Shown: in pieces, positions 11,420 to 20,516 of the stretch
Numbering within the stretch: position 1 is the stretch's first letter
Layout: the number at the start of each line of letters is the position of its first letter
NCBI GenBank assembly: GCA_965207735.1
Contig: OZ242296.1
Location: 3,448,782-3,512,781, forward strand
Direction: 5' to 3'
From: Candidatus Versatilivorator sp.
GTDB lineage: Bacteria; Acidobacteriota; Terriglobia; Versatilivoradales; Versatilivoraceae
DNA length: 64,000 bases
Program-made: the position numbers and the translations under genes
Notes under the pieces: generated by a model
What the model saw: the letters and a program-made list of their open reading frames with translations, nothing else
Databases searched by the model: none
What the model was told of the DNA's origin: nothing

Positions 11420-11832
11420 GGCCGGAAAGTAGCACAGCCGTTGGGGGGTGTCAAACCTAGCCTGAACCTAGCCTGAGGCTGCCCCAAAGGCGGGCGCACG
11501 ACCAAAAGATCTGATAGAGTCGGGAAGAAGCCCCGTAAGAATCCGGCGCGAATCATGGCTACAAAGCGACTGCCTGGATGGCCGGCCATGTTTGCAACGA
11601 CAGCCTTGCTGCTGCTCGGTGGGGGACCGCTTCGTTCACAACAGCGCGATCCCGCGAATGCGCAGGGACTCGGTATCGGCAACCCCCTTGCTCTTTCGGG
11701 TGGGTCTGCTGGTAAGCCTGACTCCACGCCTGGTCTTGCGAGGCGGGTACTCGCACATTCTCGGTTACCTGGATACGCCCGCCTCCCGCTCTTTCGAAAC
11801 GGGAATCGGATTTCGTTTCTAGCCTGAAAACG

Positions 11833-12612
11833 ATGAAGGCGACACTCACCGGATTGCGTGGCTTGATGCTGGACCTGGACGGCACTGTCTACGAGGACAA
11901 CCGCCTGATCCCCGGAGCCGCCGAAGCCATCGCCGCCCTCAGGGAGCGCGGGTTCCGGCTTCGCTTTGTGACCAACACCACCAACAAGCGACGAGAAACC
12001 ATCCGGGACAAGCTCCATGTCCTGGGCATCGAATCCGATGCCTCGGAGATATTCACGGCTCCGGTGGCAGCCAGCCTGATGCTGCGGCGTCATCCGGAGG
12101 CCCGCTGCTGGGTGGTCACCCGGGGCGACTCCATCCAGGAGTTCCAGGGCCTGAGACTGGACGAGGACCAGCCCGATTTCGTAGTTCTGGGCGATCTGAT
12201 GGAAGGGTTTACCTTTGAGCTGCTCAACCGCGTCTTTCGCAAGCTGATGGACGGCGCGGAGCTGATTGCCATGCAGAAGAACCGCTACTGGCTGACCCGG
12301 GGGGAACTCACTCTGGATATGGGGCCGTTCGTTGCCGCCCTGGAGCACGCCACCGGACGCATGGCCCGGGTGGTGGGCAAGCCCTCGCGGGAATTCTTCC
12401 ACCTGGCGCTTTCGCACCTCGGACTGGCCCTGTATCAAGCGGTCATGGTGGGGGACGACTGGGAATCCGACATCGCCGGCGCCCAGCGCGCGGGCCTGCG
12501 AACGATCCTGGTCCAAACCGGCAAGTATCAACCCGCAGACGAGAAAAATCTCGATCCGCAACCGGACGGCGTCATCGAAGGCCTCGGCCGCCTGCCGGAG
12601 ATCCTGGCTTGA
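11833..12612 (+). CDS. HAD-IIA family hydrolase (NagD-like)
   Basis: MLDLDGTVY, FVTNTT, and a C-terminal MVGDDWESDIAGAQRAGL. Confidence 0.75.
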   Translation: MKATLTGLRGLMLDLDGTVYEDNRLIPGAAEAIAALRERGFRLRFVTNTTNKRRETIRDKLHVLGIESDASEIFTAPVAASLMLRRHPEARCWVVTRGDSIQEFQGLRLDEDQPDFVVLGDLMEGFTFELLNRVFRKLMDGAELIAMQKNRYWLTRGELTLDMGPFVAALEHATGRMARVVGKPSREFFHLALSHLGLALYQAVMVGDDWESDIAGAQRAGLRTILVQTGKYQPADEKNLDPQPDGVIEGLGRLPEILA

Positions 12613-12890
12613 CATAGACGACTTTAAGGCCGTTCCCCATGGGTCCGCTGGTCATGTCGCCAAGCCCAACCGGCGCAAGCTCATTATTCCTCCCACCACC
12701 AACACTGCCAATTCGCCGAACGACGGCGACGCCTTCGGCAACTGGAAGGGTAAATGTGCACGATTGAGAGCATTTCCGGGACCACGCTTCGTGACCAACC
12801 GGGCAAAAGGAAACAAATCATCCTGGACTGAAGGTGCCGATCATTCAGTGTGCTAATGGCGTGAAATATTCGCTGTTAGCGAAATAAGTC

Positions 12891-12919
12891 TTGACTTCCA
12901 GCTCCGAAATGTTTATTTT
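12891..12919 (+). promoter_or_regulatory. sigma70-like promoter (TTGACT-N17-TATTTT) upstream of the XRE-RT module
   Basis: -35 TTGACT at 12891-12896, a 17-nt spacer, then -10 TATTTT at 12914-12919. Sits in a low-GC non-coding leader. Confidence 0.35.
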
Positions 12920-12926
12920 CAAGATG

Positions 12927-13378
12927 TTTGGAAAATACGGAAGTAAAAGTCATCACACCCTGGGTTGGCTTCGGTCAACCCGAGGAGGGGAAACCCTCTA
13001 CCGCTTACTGCAGCAATCACCCTCTCTCCTCAGTGGTGGTCGCTGAGCGAAGCGAGACCCAACCAATGACCCGTTGGGTCTCTGACACATTTGGATTTAG
13101 CTGCCACGTTCCGTCTTTCTGTTGGTGATGACCTCATTCCGCAATTCGGCGGGTGAGCAACAGAAAGGAGGTGAGAAAATGCTCTCACTGGGAACCAAAC
13201 CGTGGCGGCGGCGACCGAAGAGCGGGGGTAAGCAGTGTAGATGGCTACGTAATCCGCGCCTGCTTCGGACAGCTATCCTTATAGGCATCTGGGCCTATCG
13301 TCTATGGAGGATTTGCCGGGCGCTTAATGGTATTTTCGGAGGCTAGGTCGCTTTCCACTGTGTCAAATTACAACCGGA
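12927..13378 (+). ncRNA. candidate structured non-coding leader / retron msr-msd candidate
   Basis: ~450 nt with no credible ORF directly upstream of the XRE-RT genes. Perfect hairpins at 12962-12981 (6-bp stem) and 13054-13082 (10-bp stem, 9-nt loop). An 8-bp inverted repeat, GAAAATAC (12929-12936) with GTATTTTC (13330-13337), flanks the region and resembles a retron a1/a2 pair. Confidence 0.3.
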
Positions 13379-13723
13379 TTGGTAAGGATGGCTGTTGACG
13401 TACTATCAGAAGCACTTCGGCTGATTCGAGTGTTTCACGATGTAAAACAAAAACAATTGGCGGAACAATTGGGTATCTCGAAGTCGTATCTTTCAGAGAT
13501 CGAACGAGGTAAGAAAATACCCTCCATTGAGGTCATTCAGAAATACGCCGCTGAGTTTCAAATGCCAGTTTCGTCCATTCTTTTTTTCGCCGAGCAGTTG
13601 GTCGACCCAAACCGGAAACCTCCAGATGCCGACCGTGTAAGAGGAATCATTGCCGGAAGGGTCATCAGTTTCCTGCAGTTCATCGAAGCAAAAGCGAAAG
13701 AACATGCCGAAGAAGCGCACTAA
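13379..13723 (+). CDS. XRE-family helix-turn-helix DNA-binding protein
   Basis: HTH_XRE signature QKQLAEQLGISKSYLSEIERGKKIPSIEVIQKYAAEF. The stop overlaps the RT start by 20 nt, which suggests translational coupling. Confidence 0.7.
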   Translation: MVRMAVDVLSEALRLIRVFHDVKQKQLAEQLGISKSYLSEIERGKKIPSIEVIQKYAAEFQMPVSSILFFAEQLVDPNRKPPDADRVRGIIAGRVISFLQFIEAKAKEHAEEAH

Positions 13724-14594
13724 ATGCTACGCGGAGCAGGATAGCCCCTTCTATAAGCTCCGCTCGAAGGCGAAACTTGCAAATCTTCTCTTTCTCAACG
13801 TCGATAAATTAGAGTTTCTTGCGGAATCCGAGGACCTATACTTCGATTTCCCCAAGAAGAAAATGAGTGGCGGTTTCCGCCCGATCAGTGCGCCGCGTGC
13901 CGATCTCAAGATTGTACAGAAGAGAATTGCAGACTTGCTTCAACGCATCACTCCGCCGGATTATCTGTTTGCGCCGGTTTGCGGGCGTTCTTATGTGGAC
14001 AATGCCAAGCGGCACTTGGGAGCCAGCTCAGTTCGACACCTAGATATCGAGGATTTCTTCCCGAGTTGCACCGCAAATAAAGTCATATGGTTTTTTCGAA
14101 AGCGAATGGAATGCTCCCCGGACGTTGCAGTACTCCTTCGTGGCGTTGTCACAAGGCGTGGTTCGTTGCCACAGGGCAGCCCATGCAGTCCGATACTAGC
14201 GTATCTCTGCTATGTGGATATGTGGGAAGAAATTGAACGCCTAGTAGGCGAGAGTAGTTGCCAACTGAGTGTCTACGCCGACGACCTGACAATTTCAGGA
14301 GAAATGGTCCCGGAGAGTCTTATTTGGGAAATAAAACAAATACTGTTCCGACACGGTTTCCGACACAAACGCAGCAAGGAACGGAGCAAGATATACAAAC
14401 CTACAAAGATAACCGGTGTAATCCTCAATGGAAACCAGCTTCTCGTGCCGAACCGGCAGCACCAGAGACTCTATCAAGTTCGTCAGAAGTTGAAGGTTTC
14501 CCGCTCGCCTGAGCACCGCAGGCAGCTTAAGGCACAACTGGTCGGGCGAGAATCACAGTTCCGCCAGATTGTCGGAACTCCGCAAAGTCAGTAG
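13704..14594 (+). CDS. retron-type reverse transcriptase
   Basis: RT domains: GGFRPISAPRADLKIVQKRI (RT1/2), NAKRH (retron NAxxH motif), LDIEDFFPS (motif A), LPQGSPCSPILAYL (B'), VYADDLTISG (YADD), and KITGVILNG (VTG-like). ~297 aa. Lower GC than flanking DNA. Confidence 0.85.
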   Translation: MPKKRTKCYAEQDSPFYKLRSKAKLANLLFLNVDKLEFLAESEDLYFDFPKKKMSGGFRPISAPRADLKIVQKRIADLLQRITPPDYLFAPVCGRSYVDNAKRHLGASSVRHLDIEDFFPSCTANKVIWFFRKRMECSPDVAVLLRGVVTRRGSLPQGSPCSPILAYLCYVDMWEEIERLVGESSCQLSVYADDLTISGEMVPESLIWEIKQILFRHGFRHKRSKERSKIYKPTKITGVILNGNQLLVPNRQHQRLYQVRQKLKVSRSPEHRRQLKAQLVGRESQFRQIVGTPQSQ

Positions 14595-14603
14595 ACCCAC
14601 CAC

Positions 14604-14636
14604 GGGACTCTTGCTCAACTGGCAAGAGAAGAGTCC
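14604..14636 (+). terminator. hairpin immediately 3' of the RT stop
   Basis: gggactcttgctcaactggcaagagaagagtcc: outer stem GGACTC/GAGTCC and inner stem TTGC/GCAA. No clear U-tract, so it may be an RNA structural element rather than an intrinsic terminator. Confidence 0.3.
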
Positions 14637-14868
14637 ATAAATAGCAAGTACTCTCCAACCGTGGACTAATCGACAAGAAACGAGGATATTGGTGTCGCGA
14701 CATGTTTGCGGCATTGGCCGCTCGAGGGACAATGCGTCCCACCGCCGGTCCGCGTTCCGTCCGGTTGAGCTCCCAGAAATCAGCTTCGCCAGGATATGCT
14801 ATCCTTTCCACCAAAAACTTCCTGGCTAATGAAGTGCTGGCATCATCTCCGATGAGAGACTGTGCAAG

Positions 14869-16050
14869 ATGAATCCTGAAACGAGTCCGTTCAGCCCCGG
14901 ACAACCCGTGCCGATTGAGTTTTTTATTGGGCGCATCCGTGAGGTCGAGCGTCTGCGGGGCATGGTAAGGGCTAGTACACAAGGCAAATTCCGAATCGGA
15001 TTTGTCAGCGGAGAACGGGGCATCGGCAAGAGTTCCCTGGCGTCGTTCGTGCGCTACCTTTCAGAGCACGAGAGCCAAGTCGCAGGATGGCATGTCTTTC
15101 TCGGCGGCGTTGAGGATTTGAATGAGATGCTTCGAAGGACCTTCGATCGCCTGCTGAAGGAAAGCATGGACAAACCCTGGCATGAGCAAATCAGGAACTT
15201 TTTTGGAAACCACGTGCGTCAAGTGGGTCTGTTCGGGGTCACTTTGGAGTTGAATCTCCAGGAAAGCGACTGGTCAACGCTCGCCCATGATTTCGTGCCG
15301 ACCGTCAGGCGGCTTCTGAACGAAATCAAGGACCAGAAGCGTGCGCTATTTCTCATCCTGGATGACATCAACGGTCTCGCGGGTTCCGAAGTTTTCGCCA
15401 ACTGGCTGAAAAGCACCGTGGACGAGATCTCCACGTCCCAACAGAAAATGCCTCTCTGCATTCTAGTTGTCGGCCTTGAGGAGAGGCGCCAGGAGCTGGT
15501 GTCGAAGCAACCGTCTCTTGCGCGCGTCTTCGAGTTGATCGACATCGCCCCCTGGTCTGACGATGAAGCCATGGACTTCTACCGGAAGTCATTCGACGCC
15601 GTGGGCGCTAAGGTTGCCGACAGCGACATGCGCCAACTCGTCCGATTCACCGGCGGACTTCCTGTTCTGGCCCACGAGATCGGCGACGCCGTCTGGCGCA
15701 CGGCCGAGGGTCCGGAAATCGAGTCAAAAGAAGTATGGGAAGGAATCTTGACCGCAGCCGAGGTGATCGGCCGGAAACTGCTGCAACCCCAAGTGTTCAG
15801 GGCAATTCGCAGTGAGCGTTACCGATCCATTCTTCGAAAAATGTCGGGCGCGCCCCGGATGAGCTTTGGAAGATCAGAACTCATGGGACGTCTGTCGGAC
15901 AACGAAAGAAAGGTCATGGACAACTTCCTGCGACGCATGAAACGGCTCGGAGCGCTGGAAACCGATCCCGAGGTCAAAGGTGGATACCAATTCCCCAACC
16001 TCCTCCACATGCTTTATTTCTGGATTGAATCCCAGCGGATTTCCCGATGA
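14869..16050 (+). CDS. P-loop NTPase (AAA_16/ATPase_2-like, minimal STAND-like) associated with the retron RT
   Basis: N-terminal FIGRIREVERL motif, then Walker A GERGIGKSSL and Walker B LFLILDDINGL, with a helical C-terminal half. Shares the island's reduced GC. Confidence 0.7.
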   Translation: MNPETSPFSPGQPVPIEFFIGRIREVERLRGMVRASTQGKFRIGFVSGERGIGKSSLASFVRYLSEHESQVAGWHVFLGGVEDLNEMLRRTFDRLLKESMDKPWHEQIRNFFGNHVRQVGLFGVTLELNLQESDWSTLAHDFVPTVRRLLNEIKDQKRALFLILDDINGLAGSEVFANWLKSTVDEISTSQQKMPLCILVVGLEERRQELVSKQPSLARVFELIDIAPWSDDEAMDFYRKSFDAVGAKVADSDMRQLVRFTGGLPVLAHEIGDAVWRTAEGPEIESKEVWEGILTAAEVIGRKLLQPQVFRAIRSERYRSILRKMSGAPRMSFGRSELMGRLSDNERKVMDNFLRRMKRLGALETDPEVKGGYQFPNLLHMLYFWIESQRISR

Positions 16051-16085
16051 ATGTACTCGTTGCCTGCGATCAGGGAAGTGCTGCT

Positions 16086-16361
16086 TTACCCCTTTGACAA
16101 ACTCGGCTTGGTTAGCTCCATTAGCGTCTGCTCCTTGTCGAATACCAGGGCGCGCACATTGCCGACAGCTCGGATACTGCTGAGAAGCGGACCGTTGGCG
16201 AGCTCTGGGAACGGAAAAGCGACGGTAAGGGCCTCTTTCTTGTCGCAGAAAATACGCTGGGCGGAAGGGATGTGCGCCAGCAGCTTATCGACAAGGTCAA
16301 TCTCGCCTGAACTCCCGAGCCTCTTTCCCTCCCGGCGTAGCGTATCGGACTCTGGAAGACT
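16086..16361 (-). pseudogene. start-less ORF / gene remnant at the island edge
   Basis: A minus-strand frame reads a 91-aa protein-like sequence (...GEIDLVDKLLAHIPSAQRIFCDKKEALTVAFPFPELANGPLLSSIRAVGNVRALVFDKEQTLMELTKPSLSKG*). It opens directly after a stop and has no plausible ATG/GTG/TTG start. Confidence 0.25.
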
Positions 16362-16363
16362 TC

Positions 16364-19060
16364 ATGCGTGAGACTCTGCTTAGCTACCTGCCCGAGTTTC
16401 TGGACCGCGGCGAGGACACGGCGCTTATGGGCCGGTCCGGGCTGCGGACCGACTACTGGTCCTATGGCAGGCTGGCCCGGACTTCCTTCCAGGTGGCCCG
16501 GGAACTGGGCTCACGGGGACTCGGCCTGGGGGACCGACTGCTGTTGCGGGAAGACAACTCCCCCGAATGGGTGGCCACCTTCCTGGGGTGCCTGATGCGT
16601 GGGGTGGTCGTGGTTCCCCTGGATGTTCAGAGCTCTCCCGAGTTCGTGGCCGGCATCGAGCACCAGACCCAACCCAAGCTGGTTCTTGGAGGTGGCCCCG
16701 GCGCCTCACTTGATGACCTCCAGTCGCCGGTGGATTCTGTCGCGGCTCTTTGCCGACGCGCGACCGCACAGGTGCCGACTCCCGACTGGAGTCATGCCGG
16801 CAAGGTCACTGCCGACCACCTGGCCGAGATCGTGTTTACCTCGGGGACCACGGCGGCGCCCAAGGGGATTCGACTCACCCATAGAAACTTGCTGGCCAAT
16901 CTGACTCCACTCGAGACCGAGATCCGGAAATATGTCAAGTGGGCGGCTCCGGTCCATCCCATCCGCTTCCTGAGCCTGCTGCCACTCAGCCATGTCTTCG
17001 GCCAGATGATGGGCATTTTCGTGCCGCCTCTGCTTGGTGGCCAGGCTCTCTTTCTCAATACCCTCAATCCCTCTGAGATCATCTCGGCCATTCGCCGGGA
17101 GCGGATCTCGATGCTGGCCACCGTTCCCCGCATCCTGGAGCTGCTGCGGGACAAGATCGAGCGGGACGAGGCCGCCCAAGATAGCCGGCCCCCGCTGGTC
17201 GAGCTTTTCGAGCGCAGCCACGGTCATCACTGGCTGCGTCATTGGTGGACCTTTCGCCACGTCCGCCGCCGATTCGGCTGGAAGTTCTGGGCTTTCCTTT
17301 CGGGAGGCGCAACCCTCGATTCCGGCACCGAGGAGTTCTGGAAGAGGTTGGGCTATGCCGTCATGCAGGGGTACGGAATGACCGAAACGGCGGCCGTCAT
17401 CAGCCTTGCCCACCCCCTTCGACCCGGCCGCGGCTCGATCGGCAAACCCATGCCCGGCCAGGAAATCAAGCTGGACGAAGGGGGAGAGATCCTGGTGAGA
17501 GGCCGCAACATCTCGCCCGGCTACTGGGGGGCGGAGGATGCGCCCCTGACCGACGAGGAGGGTTGGCTGCGAACCGGGGACCTGGGCCAACGGGACGCCA
17601 GGGGAAACCTCTATTTCCGCGGCAGGCGCAAGGAGGTCATCGTCACCTCAGCGGGCTTGAACGTCTACCCCGCCGATATCGAAACGGTTCTCAACCGGCA
17701 ACCCGAGATCGGCGCCAGCGCGGTGGTGGGAGTGAACGGAGCGCAGGGCCCCGAACCGGTGGCCGTGCTCATCCTGAGAAGCCCGGAGGCGGACCCTTCC
17801 ACCGCGGTCCAACGCGCCAACCAGCACCTCAGCCCCTACCAGCAGATCCGGCACTGGGTGGTCTGGCCCGAGCGCGATTTTCCGCGGACGGCCACTCAGA
17901 AGGTACGCAAGCGGGACCTGGTCCGGTTCGCGAGCCGGCAGGGAGCGGAACCGGGCGGTCAGGCTGGAGAGGAGCAGGGAAGCCTGCTGGGCGAAATCCT
18001 GACACTGGTCGAGGGCATCACCGGGACCTCGCCGCGGCGGCGGGACCGCGAAGCCAATCTGACCTCCGATCTCAAGCTGGATTCCCTGGCCAGGGTCGCG
18101 CTGATCACCCAATTGGAAGATCGCTTCCGGATGGACCTGGACGAATCCAAAGTCACCGAAGCTCTTACTCTGGGTGACCTGGAAAGGCTGCTCCGCCGCC
18201 CGGACGGTCTACCGGAGGCCGGCCGGGGCGAGGCGGCTCCTCCAAGTCCTGAAACCGGTGGCGACCCGCGGGCTCCATCGGGACCACGCCCGGACCCGGG
18301 CTCCTCGCGGTCGCACCCGGAAACTTCCGTCAGGCCCTGGCGCCCTTATCCCTACCCCTACTGGTCCTTGAGGCGGCCCGCCACCTGGATGCGCTTCCTG
18401 TTCCAGCACTGTCTCATCTGGCCGCTCACCCATTTGCTCTGCTGGACCCGGGTGCGTGGACGAAGACACTGGCGCGGACTTCGGGAGCCCGTGCTGGTGA
18501 TCGCCAACCACGTGACCTTTTTCGATCCGGCGCTCGTCCTGGCCCGAATGCCCTGGCGCTACCGGAACCGCCTGGCTGTTGCCATGATCGGAGAAAGGCT
18601 GAGGGACTTTCGATACCCGCCGCCTGGGCGCGGGCTTGCCCGCTTCAGCGACTACCTGGCCTACGGCGCGACTGCCGGCGGGTTCAATGCCTTTCCGCTG
18701 CCCAGGCAAACCGGGTTCCGGCGCAGCTTCGACTACGCCGGGGAGGCCATGGATCGCGGCTACAGCGTCCTGGTTTTTCCGGAGGGATCACGCACCAGGG
18801 ATGGCGAAATGCAGCCCTTCCAGGCTGGAATCGGGCTGCTGGCGGCCGGTCTGGGTGCCCCGGTCGTCCCCGCCAGGATCGAAGGATTGTTTGAGCTCAA
18901 GAAAAGGAGATTCGGAGGAATCCGCTGGCCCTTCACCCGGCCCGGTCAGGTTTCCGTCACCTTCGGTCCACCGCTGCGGCCCTCGCCCTCGGACTCTCCC
19001 CAGGACCTGACCCGGGAGTTGGAGAAACGGGTCAGAGGATTGAGTCGCCGAAAGGCCTGA
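16364..19060 (+). CDS. tri-domain acyl-CoA/acyl-ACP synthetase - carrier protein - lysophospholipid acyltransferase (Aas-like fusion)
   Basis: AMP-binding domain (TSGTTAAPKG, GYGMTETA, LRTGDLG, KEVIVTSAGLNVYP). Central PP-binding segment (DLKLDSLARVALITQLE). C-terminal PlsC acyltransferase (NHVTFFD, FPEGSRTRDG). Confidence 0.8.
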   Translation: MRETLLSYLPEFLDRGEDTALMGRSGLRTDYWSYGRLARTSFQVARELGSRGLGLGDRLLLREDNSPEWVATFLGCLMRGVVVVPLDVQSSPEFVAGIEHQTQPKLVLGGGPGASLDDLQSPVDSVAALCRRATAQVPTPDWSHAGKVTADHLAEIVFTSGTTAAPKGIRLTHRNLLANLTPLETEIRKYVKWAAPVHPIRFLSLLPLSHVFGQMMGIFVPPLLGGQALFLNTLNPSEIISAIRRERISMLATVPRILELLRDKIERDEAAQDSRPPLVELFERSHGHHWLRHWWTFRHVRRRFGWKFWAFLSGGATLDSGTEEFWKRLGYAVMQGYGMTETAAVISLAHPLRPGRGSIGKPMPGQEIKLDEGGEILVRGRNISPGYWGAEDAPLTDEEGWLRTGDLGQRDARGNLYFRGRRKEVIVTSAGLNVYPADIETVLNRQPEIGASAVVGVNGAQGPEPVAVLILRSPEADPSTAVQRANQHLSPYQQIRHWVVWPERDFPRTATQKVRKRDLVRFASRQGAEPGGQAGEEQGSLLGEILTLVEGITGTSPRRRDREANLTSDLKLDSLARVALITQLEDRFRMDLDESKVTEALTLGDLERLLRRPDGLPEAGRGEAAPPSPETGGDPRAPSGPRPDPGSSRSHPETSVRPWRPYPYPYWSLRRPATWMRFLFQHCLIWPLTHLLCWTRVRGRRHWRGLREPVLVIANHVTFFDPALVLARMPWRYRNRLAVAMIGERLRDFRYPPPGRGLARFSDYLAYGATAGGFNAFPLPRQTGFRRSFDYAGEAMDRGYSVLVFPEGSRTRDGEMQPFQAGIGLLAAGLGAPVVPARIEGLFELKKRRFGGIRWPFTRPGQVSVTFGPPLRPSPSDSPQDLTRELEKRVRGLSRRKA

Positions 19061-19088
19061 AACAACCGAGCGCTATCCGCAAAGGACA

Positions 19089-19300
19089 CCCACCCGGGAG
19101 CGCGGGCGTCCCGCCCGCCTTCTCTCCCTTTGGCTACCGCTGAGTTTTCCAGCGATGCGGCAGCCGGCCATCCTGCCGGCGGGAACCGCCTGGGTCCGGC
19201 CGAAGGAGAGCCATGGCGCCGGTGCCGGTCGATCCGGGTGGAGGAGATGGGCGAGGCCGCGGGAAGACTTGTGCGGGCGGGACGCCCGCGCTCCCGGGGG
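19089..19300. repeat. MITE-like element, family 2 (30-bp TIRs)
   Basis: cccacccgggagcgcgggcgtcccgcccgc (19089-19118) and its inverted partner gcgggcgggacgcccgcgctcccgggggg (19273-19300). The ~150-bp core is the reverse complement of the core at 50461-50612. Confidence 0.6.
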
Positions 19301-19397
19301 GCTTCATCTCCTGACAGGGTCACACCAGGGACGCAAAATTGCAGGAGCATTCCGGCACCGCACGGACAGTCAGGGCCGTGGGCCGCCGCGAGGGAAT

Positions 19398-20516
19398 TTA
19401 CAGCTTGCCGGCGATGGCCTCGGCCATCTGAAGGGTGGTGCTGGCGCCTCCCATGTCGTAGGTCCGCACCCGGCCTTCGCGGATGACTTCTCCCACGGCC
19501 TCCTCCAGCCGTTGGCTCTTGTGATCCTCGGACAGGAAGTCCAGCATCATTTTGGCCGCCATAATGGTGGCGATAGGGTTGACCTTGGACTGCCCCACGT
19601 ATTTGGGCGCCGAGCCGTGGGTCGGCTCGAAGACGGCCAGCCTCTCGCCGATGTTTCCGGAGCAGGCAAACCCCAGTCCGCCTACCATCTGGGCGCACAG
19701 ATCCGAGACGATATCCCCGAACAGGTTGGGCGCGACCAGGACGTCATAGTCCAGGGGGTTCTTGAGCAGCCACATGGCCATGGCGTCCACGTTGGCATGG
19801 TCCCAGGCGATCTCCGGGTAGGAAGCCGCGATGCGCCCGGCCGCCTCCAGGAACAGCCCGTCGGTGGCCCGTACCACGTTGGCCTTGTGCACCACTGTCA
19901 CCCTCTTGCGACGGTGGTCTCGGGCAAACTGGAAGGCAGCCCGGATGATCCGCTCCGAGCCCTTGCGGGAATTGATTTTGCAGGAGATGGCCCACTCGTC
20001 CGGAGCCAGTCCCTTGAAGGGAGCAAAGGAAGGCGAGATCTCCTCCAGCAGACGGGACAGTCTCTCCGGCACGGGATGAAATTCCACGCCGGAATAGAGA
20101 TCTTCCGTATTCTCGCGAAAGATGACCAGATCGATTGCTTCTCGAACGTTGAGGGGATTGCCGGCAAAGGCCCGGCAGGGTCGCAGGCAAACGTAGAGAT
20201 CGAAGAACTGGCGCAGGCGCACGATGGGGGAACGATAGACCAAGCCCTGGCCGCGGAGCCGCGGCGCCAGTTCCTGCCCGGCTTCTCGCGCCGGCTTGGA
20301 GGTGATGGCTCCGAACAGGGCGGCATCCACCTGCTTCAACAGGTCTATGGTGCGGCCGGGAAGCGGGTCTCCTTCCCGGCGCCAGAATTCCCAGCCAATG
20401 TCGCCCGGAAGATACTCCGCATCCAACCCTAGACGATCCAGCACGATCCGGGCGGCCTCCAGGACCTCTCCACCTATCCCGTCTCCCGGCAGCCAGGCGA
20501 TCTTGTATTTGGGCAT
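19398..20516 (-). CDS. isocitrate/isopropylmalate dehydrogenase family protein
   Basis: KIAWLPGDGIGGEV, the R/Y substrate motifs (RENTEDLYSG), NLFGDIVSDL, and the GSAPKYVGQ region. Start set at MPKYK. Confidence 0.8.
   Translation of the reverse strand: MPKYKIAWLPGDGIGGEVLEAARIVLDRLGLDAEYLPGDIGWEFWRREGDPLPGRTIDLLKQVDAALFGAITSKPAREAGQELAPRLRGQGLVYRSPIVRLRQFFDLYVCLRPCRAFAGNPLNVREAIDLVIFRENTEDLYSGVEFHPVPERLSRLLEEISPSFAPFKGLAPDEWAISCKINSRKGSERIIRAAFQFARDHRRKRVTVVHKANVVRATDGLFLEAAGRIAASYPEIAWDHANVDAMAMWLLKNPLDYDVLVAPNLFGDIVSDLCAQMVGGLGFACSGNIGERLAVFEPTHGSAPKYVGQSKVNPIATIMAAKMMLDFLSEDHKSQRLEEAVGEVIREGRVRTYDMGGASTTLQMAEAIAGKL

What the first reader, a model, noticed from the sequence alone, without database searches (positions are those of the whole stretch)
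12891..13378. Structured ~450-nt non-coding leader with promoter: candidate retron msr-msd ncRNA
Retrons require an ncRNA (msr-msd) normally encoded just upstream of the first gene of the operon. The ~770 bp between the HAD-IIA stop and the XRE start has no convincing ORF. It contains a sigma70-like promoter (TTGACT-17-TATTTT at 12891-12919). It contains perfect hairpins: gggttgGCTTCGGTcaaccc (12962-12981) and gagacccaacCAATGACCCgttgggtctc (13054-13082, a 10-bp stem). An 8-bp inverted repeat GAAAATAC/GTATTTTC (12929-12936 with 13330-13337) could act as an a1/a2 pair bracketing the structured region. At ~400 nt this is longer than classical msr-msd.
Basis: inference. Interest (0 to 1): 0.7.

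Follow-up and report, generated by a model that had tools for sequence, protein, structure and literature searches.

The report
Type VI retron hybrid RNA with toxin gene
The "non-coding leader" is the hybrid RNA of a Type VI retron anti-phage system: a structured reverse-transcription template joined to a hidden 55-codon toxin gene whose ribosome-binding site is locked in a hairpin. This design was first described in 2025, so it is a new example of a known kind.

Summary

The two genes downstream are a Type VI retron pair: HTH_VI (E = 1e-31) and RT_VI (E = 1.5e-93).

The leader matches the "hybrid RNA" (hyRNA) described for Retron-Vpa2 in 2025. It has three parts:
- **Template part (12949-13082):** an msr-msd-like region, colinear with the predicted Vpa2 msr-msd.
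- **Riboregulator arm:** its stem pairs with the Shine-Dalgarno sequence.
- **Small protein (SP) gene (13179-13346):**

The SP gene has an ATG and a Shine-Dalgarno sequence in more than 60 related loci. It is exactly 168 nt in 11 diverged loci, with an excess of synonymous changes.

Across 32 homologues, 66 proposed base pairs are 93% paired, against 36-50% in slid controls. Compensatory changes occur in 52 of them.

Two direct repeats, AATGACC and GATGACC, sit in the msd-like loop and the riboregulator loop, as reported for Vpa2. A 5' element, GTCATCAC, covaries with them.

The likely mechanism is that msDNA made on infection releases translation of the toxin. That step is inferred, not shown.

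Verdict: a new member of a known kind, of moderate interest.

The parts
12869..12883 (.). Palindrome TTCGCT-GTT-AGCGAA, 7 nt upstream of the -35 box. It is a candidate operator, presumably for the retron's Cro/C1-type HTH protein.
   Evidence: It occurs once in the 64-kb window, where 0.11 matches are expected. With at most 2 mismatches it is found at the same place (-290 to -340 from the SP start) in 60 of 67 related loci. The half-sites are conserved in sequence and do not covary, as expected for a protein-binding site. Binding by the HTH protein is inferred.
12891..12919 (+). Sigma-70-like promoter: TTGACT, 17-nt spacer, TATTTT. The inferred transcription start is near 12926.
   Evidence: Consensus scan. 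TTGAC and TAnnnT are kept in register in the relatives (A2 and A3). The start site is inferred, not measured.
12926..13367 (+). Predicted hybrid RNA (hyRNA), about 440-450 nt: msr-msd-like domain, riboregulator and SP coding sequence. The ends are approximate.
   Evidence: Fold z = -5.0. 66 pairs in 10 helices are 93.4% paired in 32 homologues, 52 of them with compensatory changes. The architecture matches the published Vpa2 hyRNA description.
12937..12942 (+). Leader motif ACGGAA, complementary to TTCCGT at 13109-14 (possible helix P0).
   Evidence: The core CGGA:UCCG is complementary in 32 of 32 sequences, but it is nearly invariant and shows few compensatory changes. Support is weak.
12949..12956 (+). 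5' element GTCATCAC, complementary to both direct repeats. The best-supported partner is R2 (13125-32), forming pseudoknot helix P1.
   Evidence: Perfect 8-bp inverted repeat I11. The 6-bp core is paired in 189 of 192 cells with R2, against 178 of 192 with R1. Compensatory variants include GTCATT/AATGAC, GTCACT/AGTGAC, GTCTTT/AAAGAC, GTCACC/GGTGAC and GTCGTC/GACGAC.
12962..12981 (+). Stem-loop i (msr-like): GGGTTGGC-TTCG-GTCAACCC.
   Evidence: All 7 pairs show compensatory changes and 95.9% of cells are paired.
12984..12999 (+). Stem-loop ii (msr-like): GGAGGG-GAAA-CCCTCT.
   Evidence: 98.4% of cells are paired and 4 of 6 pairs show compensatory changes. Its counterpart in Vpa2 is GGAAAAC-GAAA-GTTTTC.
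13002..13054 (+). Sequence-variable long hairpin closed by GCTT...AAGC. This is the candidate main msd stem, the template for msDNA.
   Evidence: It is 48-67 nt long in the 32 homologues. Column identity is 0.56, against 0.70-0.81 in the flanking regions. It always folds as an imperfect hairpin, with a mean paired fraction of 0.65. It occupies the position of the long stem-loop that gives msDNA in Vpa2. Its msd role is inferred.
13054..13082 (+). Stem-loop iii (10-bp stem) carrying direct repeat R1, AATGACC (13065-71), in its loop. [quoted passage not shown]
   Evidence: 98.9% of cells are paired and 5 of 9 pairs show compensatory changes. The loop motif GGACGA of relative L012 is identical to the loop of the corresponding Vpa2 hairpin. 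A repeat in an msd loop is described for Vpa2.
13083..13095 (+). 5' strand of the junction helix: TGACACA (13083-89) and TGGA (13092-95). [quoted passage not shown]
   Evidence: Inverted repeat I17. RNAalifold predicts the 13092-95:13354-57 pairs. Duplex energy with the sequence's own tail averages -12.6 kcal/mol, against -7.2 for shuffled tails and -9.8 for tails of other sequences (p = 6e-6). Compensatory variants include GACAA/TTGTC, GGTATATTGG/CCAATGTATC, GTGTA/TACAC and ATGCA/TGTAT.
13100..13209 (+). Arm 2, the riboregulator. Its parts are: base helix 13100-07:13202-09; anti-SD stem 13114-24:13158-68; internal loop with repeat R2, GATGACC (13127-33); inner hairpin 13134-57; and a small hairpin 13170-76:13183-89 with AUG 13179 in its loop.
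   Evidence: The base helix is 95.8% paired, with 8 of 9 pairs compensatory. All 10 pairs of the anti-SD stem are compensatory. The arm folds with mean z = -4.2, and the mean probability that the SD is paired is 0.83 across the 32 homologues.
13179..13346 (+). SP gene: a 55-aa small protein, MLSLGTKPWRRRPKSGGKQCRWLRNPRLLRTAILIGIWAYRLWRICRALNGIFGG, with SD AAGGAGGTGA at 13165-74. It is the presumed toxic effector.
   Evidence: An ORF of 47-77 aa (nearly all 48-62) is found in synteny in more than 60 distinct loci, nearly always with an ATG start and an SD. In 11 diverged loci it is exactly 168 nt, differences peak at the third codon position (962/833/1235), and 561 differing codons are synonymous against 236-288 in the other frames. 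AF2 predicts a disordered basic N-terminus and a helix at 26-53, with pLDDT 86-91 over residues 31-50. There is no Pfam or PADLOC family. Toxicity is inferred from the SPs of Vpa2 and Sen3.
13210..13352 (+). Arm 3: the rest of the SP coding sequence, closed by GGCGACC (13210-16) pairing with GGTCGCT (13346-52, beginning at the G of the stop codon).
   Evidence: 99.1% of cells are paired and 6 of 7 pairs show compensatory changes.
13354..13365 (+). Tail: TCCA (13354-57) and TGTGTCA (13359-65). This is the 3' strand of the junction helix, lying in non-coding sequence after the SP stop codon.
   Evidence: It is invariant in close relatives although non-coding (A2). It covaries with 13083-95.
13388..13723 (+). 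Type VI retron HTH protein (Cro/C1 type), 111 aa.
   Evidence: PADLOC HTH_VI E = 9.9e-32; Pfam HTH_3 E = 8.8e-14.
13704..14594 (+). Type VI retron reverse transcriptase, 296 aa, with the YADD motif. It overlaps the HTH gene by 20 nt.
   Evidence: PADLOC RT_VI E = 1.5e-93, against 6.5e-45 for the next-best type. 899 homologues reach E <= 1e-20.

Best explanation
The interval 12891-13378 holds the promoter and the hybrid RNA (hyRNA) of a Type VI retron. The operon order is promoter, msr-msd-like RNA, SP, HTH, RT.

One transcript of about 445 nt would carry three things:
1. A 5' domain that serves as recognition element and template for the reverse transcriptase. It contains the 5' element, stem-loops i and ii, a variable long hairpin and stem-loop iii.
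2. A riboregulator arm whose 11-bp stem pairs with the Shine-Dalgarno sequence of a small ORF.
3. The coding sequence of that ORF, a 55-aa basic and hydrophobic helical protein (SP) that is the toxic effector.

A helix between 13083-95 and 13354-65 joins the tail after the SP stop codon back to the base of the msd-like domain. Together with arm 2 and arm 3 this forms a three-way junction.

Proposed working, by analogy with Retron-Vpa2. This is inferred, not shown here.
- At rest, RT and HTH bind the RNA, little msDNA accumulates, and SP is not translated because its SD is paired.
- On infection, msDNA copied from stem-loop iii and the variable hairpin accumulates.
- The 5' stem-loop of that msDNA displays GGTCATT, the copy of repeat R1.
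- GGTCATT pairs with repeat R2 (GAUGACC) in the internal loop next to the anti-SD strand.
- This opens the riboregulator, SP is made, and the infected cell stops growing.

The RNA's own 5' element (GUCAUCAC) has the same sequence logic as that msDNA loop and covaries with R2. It probably occupies R2 in the resting state.
For: Shown here:
- Type VI identity of RT and HTH.
- The same unit lies upstream of RT homologues down to about 44% identity, in different genomic contexts.
- Consensus structure with covariation: 93.4% of cells paired, against 78% in shuffles and 36-50% in slid controls. 52 of 66 pairs are compensatory, and 0 of 500 shuffles reach the observed values.
- The SD is paired with mean probability 0.83 in 32 homologues.
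- The SP ORF is conserved, of fixed length and under coding constraint.
- SP has a basic N-terminus and a long C-terminal helix.
- Repeats R1 and R2 lie in the loop of stem-loop iii and in the riboregulator loop. Complementarity of cDNA(R1) to R2 holds in 189 of 192 cells, and of the 5' element to R2 in 189 of 192.
- The 5' half is colinear with the predicted Vpa2 msr-msd.

From the literature:
- Vpa2 has a hyRNA of about 470 nt with three arms. Its RBS and AUG lie in stem-loops, and its 3' end anneals back to the first arm.
- Vpa2 has 7-nt direct repeats in an msd loop and a riboregulator loop. Its SP is 55 aa and toxic, and msDNA is needed for SP translation (10.1101/2025.10.22.683967; SP length).
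Against: - There are no transcript, msDNA or toxicity data for this locus. The ends of the RNA are inferred.
- The start point of reverse transcription and the priming G cannot be assigned. No conserved G follows either a1-like strand.
- Helix P1 crosses the anti-SD stem and the arm-2 base helix. It is therefore either a pseudoknot or an alternative conformer, and which one is unknown.
- In another Type VI retron, Sen3, SP is made constitutively and is held in check by HTH at the protein level (10.64898/2026.04.27.721009). The Vpa2 mechanism is therefore not universal.
- The authors' hyRNA covariance model could not be run here.
Confidence: 0.8

Rival explanations
1. Sen3-like Type VI retron. 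The parts are the same, but SP is translated constitutively and neutralised by the HTH protein as a protein-level toxin-antitoxin pair. msDNA is made constitutively, and defence is triggered by inhibition of RecBCD rather than by msDNA-dependent release of translation.
For: Retron-Sen3 works this way and also has its SP RBS paired in one RNA conformer. HTH and RT overlap and are probably co-expressed with SP.
Against: - The SP here is 55 aa, like the Vpa2 SP. The cl2075 SP of Sen3 is 79 aa.
- The R1/R2 direct repeats described for the Vpa2 family are present and covary.
- The 5' domain is colinear with Vpa2.
- The SD stem is strongly conserved by covariation.
- The relatives are mostly Alphaproteobacteria, whereas cl2075 is found in Beta- and Gammaproteobacteria.
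Confidence: 0.15
2. One reading: a purely non-coding msr-msd of about 400 nt, closed by the a1/a2 pair GAAAATAC (12931-38) and GTATTTTC (13330-37), with priming from the G after a1.
For: The 8-bp inverted repeat exists and brackets the structured region.
Against: - The pair is formed in only 51.9% of cells across 32 homologues, the same as shuffled (47.8%) and slid (34-52%) controls.
- Duplex energies between the leader and the SP 3' end are no better than between sequences from different loci (p = 0.25).
- The 3' arm lies in conserved codons of a real gene.
- Three other perfect 8-bp inverted repeats occur in the same 541 nt.
Confidence: 0.02
3. An ordinary structured 5' UTR or attenuator that regulates the HTH-RT operon and a small leader peptide, with no reverse transcription of this RNA. 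In this reading the retron template lies elsewhere or the RT is inactive.
For: No msDNA was detectable for six Type VI retrons under standard conditions. No Rfam family matches the region.
Against: - The RT keeps the YADD motif and all conserved motifs.
- The RNA domain co-occurs with the RT in every context examined.
- It is colinear with the Vpa2 region to which msDNA was mapped.
- A sequence-variable hairpin flanked by conserved stems is typical of an msd.
Confidence: 0.03

Closest known systems
Retron-Vpa2 hyRNA (Type VI retron, Vibrio parahaemolyticus; Zhang et al., bioRxiv 10.1101/2025.10.22.683967)
   Same: - Operon order: native promoter, msr-msd, SP, HTH, RT.
- RNA of about 450-470 nt with three arms around a central node.
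- RBS and AUG of SP lie in stem-loops.
- A tail after the SP gene pairs back to the msr-msd arm.
- 7-nt direct repeats sit in an msd loop and in the riboregulator loop.
- SP is 55 aa with a hydrophobic C-terminal helix.
- The 5' domains are colinear: 5' element TCGTCAC, two short stem-loops, a long variable hairpin, and a last hairpin with loop GGACGA, as in relative L012.
   Different: - Primary sequence is largely different.
- The repeat here is (A/G)ATGACC. From the predicted msr-msd of Vpa2, the Vpa2 repeat appears to be GACGAAA-like.
- Hosts differ: the closest relatives here come from metagenomes, and the genome relatives are mostly Alphaproteobacteria.
- Nothing has been tested experimentally for this locus.
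- Two features seen here are not mentioned in the paper's text: covariation of the 5' element with R2, and the promoter-proximal palindrome.
Retron-Sen3 and the cl2075 lineage (Type VI; Garcia-Rodriguez et al., bioRxiv 10.64898/2026.04.27.721009)
   Same: - SP-HTH-RT module with an upstream structured ncRNA.
- The SP RBS is paired.
- A long-range pairing between the ncRNA and sequence just after the SP stop codon (IR1-IR2) encloses the SP gene.
[quoted passage not shown]
- There is a variable internal hairpin.
   Different: - The Sen3 SP is 79 aa, with an N-terminal extension.
- Sen3 makes ssDNA constitutively, and control is post-translational, with HTH acting as antitoxin.
- The lineage is found in Beta- and Gammaproteobacteria.
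- The stem-loop just upstream of the 5' repeat, conserved in cl2075, is seen here only in a subgroup of relatives (L014, L015, L039, L040, L017), not in the window.
Canonical retron msr-msd (for example Ec86/Eco1)
   Same: - It is encoded upstream of the RT.
- Short conserved stem-loops are followed by a longer, sequence-variable hairpin.
- Terminal complementarities enclose the template.
   Different: - The RNA here is about three times longer and contains a protein-coding gene.
- No clear a1/a2 pair with a priming G directly after a1 can be identified.
- In the characterised Type VI system, msDNA activates the toxin instead of holding it in check.
- No Rfam family matches.
Translational riboregulators and type I toxin-antitoxin mRNAs with a sequestered SD (for example hok and tisB mRNA folding)
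   Same: A small hydrophobic or basic toxin ORF has its SD locked in a long-range or local stem until a rearrangement of nucleic-acid pairing frees it.
   Different: The proposed trigger is a reverse-transcribed DNA copy of another part of the same RNA, not RNA processing or loss of an antisense RNA.

Membership tests
Type VI retron (Mestre et al. 2020 classification) | RT belongs to the retron RT clade typed as VI | tested here: met
   PADLOC RT_VI E = 1.5e-93 over the full model, against 6.5e-45 for the next-best type (III-A). The YADD motif is present.
Type VI retron (Mestre et al. 2020 classification) | Cro/C1-type HTH gene directly upstream of, or overlapping, the RT gene | tested here: met
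   HTH_VI E = 9.9e-32. The HTH stop at 13723 and the RT ATG at 13704 give a 20-nt overlap.
Type VI retron (Mestre et al. 2020 classification) | RT-dependent msDNA and anti-phage defence | not testable with these tools
   This requires msDNA extraction or Spacer-seq, and plaque assays.
Type VI hyRNA (Zhang et al. 2025) | [quoted passage not shown] | not testable with these tools
   The sequence is compatible: from the promoter at 12891-12919 to the last conserved helix at 13365 is about 445 nt. No RNA data are available.
Type VI hyRNA (Zhang et al. 2025) | Small toxic protein ORF between the ncRNA and the HTH gene | tested here: met
   The ORF at 13179-13346 is conserved in more than 60 loci and carries a coding signature. 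Toxicity was not tested.
Type VI hyRNA (Zhang et al. 2025) | Three arms around a central node, with the 3' end annealing back to the msr-msd arm | tested here: met
   The helices are 13083-95:13354-65, 13100-07:13202-09 and 13210-16:13346-52. All show compensatory changes.
Type VI hyRNA (Zhang et al. 2025) | SP RBS and start codon held in stem-loops | tested here: met
   All 10 pairs of the anti-SD stem 13114-24:13158-68 are compensatory. Mean P(SD paired) is 0.83. In the window, the AUG lies in the loop of a 7-bp hairpin. Pairing of the AUG varies among relatives (mean 0.40).
Type VI hyRNA (Zhang et al. 2025) | 7-nt direct repeats, one in an msd loop and one in a riboregulator loop | tested here: met
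   AATGACC at 13065-71 lies in the loop of stem-loop iii. GATGACC at 13127-33 lies in the internal loop of arm 2. The two co-vary across 32 homologues.
Type VI hyRNA (Zhang et al. 2025) | Match to the authors' covariance model, or homology to the Vpa2 RNA | tested here: inconclusive
   The model is not available. Alignment with the 153-nt predicted Vpa2 msr-msd from the retron census supplement is colinear element by element, but sequence identity is low.
Canonical retron msr-msd | Terminal a1/a2 inverted repeats enclosing msr and msd | tested here: inconclusive
Two other covarying long-range pairings exist: 12949-56 with 13125-32, and 13083-95 with 13354-65. Neither has been shown to be the priming duplex.
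Canonical retron msr-msd | Conserved branching G immediately 3' of a1 | tested here: not met
   ACCC follows the 5' element, and variable A/T/C-rich sequence follows the tail strand (A3). No conserved G lies at either position.
Any curated RNA family (Rfam 15) | Covariance-model hit in the region | tested here: not met
   No match at E <= 10 lies within 12600-13400. The only two hits in 11500-20000 are weak chance matches elsewhere.
cl2075 (Sen3-type) SP lineage | SP of about 79 aa with an N-terminal extension; hosts in Beta- and Gammaproteobacteria | tested here: not met
   The SP here is 55 aa, and relatives are nearly all 48-62 aa. Genome relatives are mostly Alphaproteobacteria. No direct sequence comparison was possible because no cl2075 sequence was in hand.

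The most novel reading that the evidence does not exclude
The hyRNA may carry its own RNA stand-in for the msDNA. The 5' element GUCAUCAC pairs with repeat R2 in the riboregulator's internal loop, forming a pseudoknot stacked on the anti-SD stem that locks it shut. The msDNA loop has the same sequence logic, being the cDNA of repeat R1. It would switch the toxin on by displacing this RNA stand-in through a toehold-like exchange. In addition, the conserved palindrome TTCGCT-N3-AGCGAA next to the -35 box would make the HTH protein an autorepressor of the whole operon. The system would then have a transcriptional layer as well as the RNA and protein layers. Neither feature is mentioned in the text of the two Type VI preprints I read.
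Probability: 0.3. Interest if true: 0.55.

Novelty: new member of a known kind. Interest (0 to 1): 0.35.

Why it matters
Type VI retrons reverse the usual retron logic. In Vpa2 the reverse-transcribed DNA switches a toxin on instead of holding it off, and the toxin gene is hidden inside the template RNA.

- **More material for testing models.** This locus and its 60-plus relatives extend that architecture to a large clade from metagenomes and mostly alphaproteobacterial genomes. Its sequence diversity is enough to test structural models by covariation.
- **Annotation gap.** The SP gene is almost never called: 34 called proteins, against about 900 RT homologues. Type VI retrons will therefore be annotated as lacking an effector, and the leader will be read as non-coding, as happened here.
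- **Mutagenesis targets.** The covarying triplet (5' element, R1, R2) and the conserved operator-like palindrome are concrete targets for working out how msDNA opens the riboregulator and what the HTH protein binds.

Tried and rejected
- **Rfam scan of 11500-20000 at E <= 10.** Nothing was found in the region.
- **Pfam and PADLOC on the small ORFs.** No family matched.
Rejected by pair counts and by duplex energies.
- **5' leader pairing with the tail after the SP gene.** Not supported: own-sequence energies were no better than cross-sequence energies, p = 0.51.
- **Helix P0 (ACGGAA:TTCCGT).** The complementarity is conserved but nearly invariant, so it stays weak.
- **13-nt inverted repeat between the SP coding sequence (13269-81) and the HTH RBS and start (13383-95).** It is strong in the window (-29 kcal/mol) but not conserved (p = 0.69).
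- **AGC:GCT extension of the junction helix.** RNAduplex suggested it, but it conflicts with the better-supported base helices of arms 2 and 3, so I dropped it.
- **STAND/AAA_16 ATPase (14869-16050) as a retron component.** Rejected. It follows the RT only in the closest relatives. In L169 it is replaced by restriction-modification genes, and L172 has different neighbours on both sides. In L170 a transposase-like gene follows the RT. In L171, which carries the same RT, the ATPase lies about 2 kb further downstream.
- **Supplements of Zhang et al.** They hold no hyRNA sequence. Only the 153-nt predicted msr-msd of Vpa2 could be recovered, from the retron census supplement. The Vpa2 riboregulator and SP could therefore not be compared directly.
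- **Exact 6-mer triple test (5' element, R1, R2).** Found in 17 of 67 loci, against 1.3 in shuffles. The 5-mer version gave 56 of 67, against 18.5. The more distant 44-48% group uses other motifs that I did not resolve.
Full report
**1. What is in the sequence**

The interval lies between a HAD-family hydrolase gene (11833-12612) and three further genes:
- an HTH gene (13388-23);
- a reverse transcriptase gene (13704-14594, overlapping the HTH gene by 20 nt);
- an AAA_16/STAND-like ATPase gene (14869-16050).

- TTGACT, 17-nt spacer, TATTTT at 12891-12919;
- a perfect hairpin at 12962-81;
- a perfect hairpin with a 10-bp stem at 13054-82.

The 8-bp inverted repeat is real, but its 5' arm is at 12931-38, not 12929-36. 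Three other perfect 8-bp inverted repeats occur in the same 541 nt. The region 12920-13378 folds at -181.7 kcal/mol, with z = -5.0 against dinucleotide shuffles. No Rfam family matches.

**2. What the locus is**

PADLOC profiles place the two genes in retron Type VI. RT_VI scores E = 1.5e-93, against 6.5e-45 for the next-best type, and HTH_VI scores 9.9e-32.

Two recent preprints describe this type.
- **Zhang et al. [quoted passage not shown] The SP's RBS and start codon sit in stem-loops. The RNA has three arms around a central node, and its 3' end anneals back to the first arm. Two 7-nt direct repeats lie in an msd loop and a riboregulator loop. msDNA accumulates only on triggering and is needed for SP translation.
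- **Garcia-Rodriguez et al. (10.64898/2026.04.27.721009).** Retron-Sen3 has the same SP-HTH-RT module and an ncRNA-SP long-range pairing. However, it makes ssDNA constitutively, and HTH acts as a protein antitoxin.

**3. The missed gene**

A strong Shine-Dalgarno sequence (AAGGAGGTGA, 13165-74) is followed five bases later by ATG 13179. From there a 55-codon ORF runs to TAG 13344-46.

The evidence that it is a real gene:
- tblastn finds it in the syntenic position, immediately upstream of the HTH gene, in the related loci.
- An automated search finds an ORF of 47-77 aa (nearly all 48-62) in more than 60 distinct loci, nearly always with an ATG start and an SD. These cover RT identities down to about 31-44%. 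The proteins share an arginine-rich N-terminus and a motif of the form W-P-x-W-L-R-x-P-x-L-L...Y-R-L-W-R.
- In 11 loci whose SPs are only about 40-85% identical, the ORF is exactly 168 nt.
- In those loci, differences peak at the third codon position (962/833/1235). Synonymous codon differences are twice as frequent as in the other two frames (561 against 236-288), and the other frames carry stop codons.

AlphaFold2, run on an alignment of database homologues, gives a disordered basic N-terminus and one long helix at residues 26-53, with pLDDT 86-91 over residues 31-50. This agrees with what is described for the Vpa2 SP, which is also 55 aa.

The family has no Pfam or PADLOC model. Only 34 members are called as proteins in a database of 5.8 billion, against 899 RT homologues.

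**4. The RNA structure, tested on relatives**

I fetched 172 loci around RT homologues from genomes, metagenomes and assembled contigs. I then aligned the interval between the promoter and the HTH start for 32 distinct relatives (A3).

RNAalifold on this alignment returns 59 pairs, 50 of them with compensatory changes. I counted a 66-pair structure in 10 helices, including one pseudoknot helix:

| Measure | Observed | Shuffled | Slid controls |
|---|---|---|---|
| Cells forming a standard pair | 93.4% | 78.2% | 36-50% |
| Covariation score | 0.53 | 0.23 | 0.08-0.16 |

Compensatory changes occur in 52 of the 66 pairs, and 0 of 500 shuffles reach the observed values.

The helices, in window coordinates:
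- stem-loop i: 12962-68 with 12975-81;
- stem-loop ii: 12984-89 with 12994-99;
- stem-loop iii: 13054-63 with 13073-82;
- arm-2 base: 13100-07 with 13202-09;
- anti-SD stem: 13114-24 with 13158-68;
- an inner hairpin within 13134-57;
- arm-3 base: 13210-16 with 13346-52.

Between stem-loops ii and iii lies a hairpin of 48-67 nt. It is closed by conserved GCTT/AAGC but is variable in sequence, with column identity 0.56 against 0.70-0.81 in the flanks. That is the usual look of an msd stem.

The sequence just after stem-loop iii (TGACACA..TGGA, 13083-95) pairs with the non-coding tail after the SP stop codon (TCCA.TGTGTCA, 13354-65). MAFFT misaligns the tail, so I tested this with duplex energies. 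Each sequence's own partner gave -12.6 kcal/mol, against -7.2 for shuffled partners and -9.8 for partners from other loci (p = 6e-6). Clear compensatory variants are seen.

Together these helices form a three-way junction. One branch leads to the msr-msd-like domain. The second is the riboregulator holding the SD and AUG. The third is the remainder of the SP coding sequence. This is the architecture reported for Vpa2.

Across the 32 homologues, the SD has a mean pairing probability of 0.83 and arm 2 folds with mean z = -4.2.

**5. Repeats and the 5' element**

AATGACC (13065-71) lies in the loop of stem-loop iii. GATGACC (13127-33) lies in the internal loop of arm 2, directly 3' of the anti-SD strand. 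These are the counterpart of the 7-nt direct repeats of Zhang et al.

In addition, GTCATCAC (12949-56), about 23 nt from the inferred 5' end, is the exact complement of 13125-32. Across the 32 homologues:
- the 6-nt core of the 5' element pairs with R2 in 189 of 192 cells;
- a DNA copy of R1 pairs with R2 in 189 of 192 cells;
- the 5' element pairs with R1 in 178 of 192 cells.

The three elements change together:

| 5' element | Repeat |
|---|---|
| GTCATT | AATGAC |
| GTCACT | AGTGAC |
| GTCTTT | AAAGAC |
| GTCACC | GGTGAC |
| GTCGTC | GACGAC |

The 5' element:R2 helix crosses the anti-SD stem and the arm-2 base helix. It is therefore either an H-type pseudoknot or an alternative conformer, and I cannot tell which.

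A second leader motif, ACGGAA (12937-42), is complementary to TTCCGT (13109-14) in all sequences. It is almost invariant, so support is weak.

**6. Direct comparison with Vpa2**

The retron census supplement gives a 153-nt predicted msr-msd for Vpa2 (Mestre-685). Aligned with window 12945-13100 and relatives, it is colinear element by element:
- 5' TCGTCAC, against GTCGTCAC in L081 and L089;
- two short stem-loops;
- a long variable hairpin;
- a last hairpin whose loop, GGACGA, is identical to that of relative L012.

In Vpa2, the 63-nt msDNA maps to the long hairpin. The full 86-nt form adds 23 nt at its 5' end, carrying the repeat. By position, the msd here would be about 13001-13085.

**7.

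Columns 12931-38 and 13330-37 pair in 51.9% of cells. Shuffles give 47.8% and slid controls 34-52%. Duplex energies between the leader and the SP 3' end are no better than between sequences from different loci (p = 0.25).

No conserved G follows either candidate a1-like strand, so the priming site cannot be assigned from sequence.

**8. Mechanism, and what is inferred**

*Shown here:* the gene content, the conserved structure, the paired SD, the coding status of SP, and the repeat and 5'-element complementarities.

*Inferred by analogy with Vpa2:* the RNA is bound by RT and HTH. msDNA from 13001-13085 accumulates on infection. Its 5' stem-loop presents GGTCATT to R2, opens the anti-SD stem and allows SP translation, which stops growth of the infected cell.

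*My own inference:* the 5' element occupies R2 in the resting state.

The Sen3-type alternative, with constitutive SP and HTH as a protein antitoxin, cannot be excluded. It is less likely given the SP length, the repeats and the colinearity with Vpa2.

**9. Context**

The unit from promoter to RT is constant, but its neighbours are not.
- The HAD gene and the ATPase flank it in the closest relatives (L161-L168).
- L169 has XhoI-type restriction-modification genes downstream.
- In L170 a transposase-like gene follows the RT.
- In L171, which carries the same RT, a pentapeptide-repeat gene follows and the ATPase lies about 2 kb further downstream.
- L172 has different neighbours on both sides.

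The ATPase is therefore a neighbour, not a retron component.

A palindrome, TTCGCT-N3-AGCGAA (12869-83), lies just upstream of the -35 box. It occurs once in the window (0.11 expected) and is present in 60 of 67 related loci. It looks like an operator. Neither preprint mentions one.

**10. Verdict**

It is partly wrong: the region is not non-coding, and the proposed a1/a2 pair is incorrect.

The element is a new member of the Type VI retron hyRNA class, which was described in 2025-2026. Interest is moderate. Its value lies in the large, diverse set of relatives that supports a detailed structural model, in the covarying triplet of 5' element, R1 and R2, and in the conserved operator-like site.

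Noticed in passing
window 12869-12883: A perfect palindrome, TTCGCT-GTT-AGCGAA, lies 7 nt upstream of the -35 box. It occurs once in the window and is present (at most 2 mismatches) at the same position in 60 of 67 related Type VI loci. The half-sites are conserved in sequence rather than covarying. It is probably an operator for the retron HTH protein. Neither of the two Type VI preprints mentions it.
   Followed up: partly
window 14869-16050 (also 16051-16371): An AAA_16/ATPase_2/nSTAND1-like ATPase of 393 aa follows the RT, and is itself followed by a 106-aa ORF with no family. The ATPase is adjacent to the retron only in the closest relatives (L161-L168). In L169 it is replaced by XhoI and methyltransferase genes, and L172 has different neighbours. 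In L170 a transposase-like gene follows the RT. In L171, which carries the same RT, the ATPase lies about 2 kb further downstream. This looks like a variable defence hotspot next to the HAD gene. The ATPase has no PADLOC match.
   Followed up: partly
window 13179-13346 and related loci: Gene callers almost never call the SP gene. An SP profile finds only 34 called proteins in a database of 5.8 billion, all unnamed or 'hypothetical' apart from one DUF1002-family label. The adjacent RT has 899 homologues.
   Followed up: yes
window 13269-13281 with 13383-13395: A 13-nt inverted repeat (12 of 13 complementary) pairs the SP coding sequence with the RBS and ATG of the HTH gene. The duplex is -29 kcal/mol in the window. 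It is not conserved in relatives (own against cross-sequence energies, p = 0.69), so it is probably specific to this lineage or due to chance.
   Followed up: yes
L014, L015, L039, L088, L040, L017 (5' leader, about 15-30 nt upstream of the GTC of the 5' element): A subgroup of relatives has a small extra stem-loop with compensatory changes just upstream of the CGGAA motif. Examples are ACCC-TTCG-GGGT, CACA-AA-TGTG and GCG-CAA-CGC. It resembles the 'conserved stem-loop upstream of the 5' repeat' reported for the cl2075 lineage. The window itself lacks it.
   Followed up: no
L020-L036, L091-L101 (RT 44-48% identical; Sphingomonadales and Rhodobacterales): In this more distant group the SP is 51-62 aa, with the N-terminus M-A-F-S-K-I-T-Y-R-R-R-R-R-R. 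The repeat and 5'-element motif is not GATGAC. A GAGAA-type triple appears instead. The RNA of this subgroup was not resolved.
   Followed up: no
window 16364-19060: An 898-aa protein combines AMP-binding, PP-binding and acyltransferase domains and resembles acyl-ACP-phospholipid O-acyltransferase (Aas-like). It is syntenic in L165 and L166. It is a housekeeping neighbour, unrelated to the retron.
   Followed up: no
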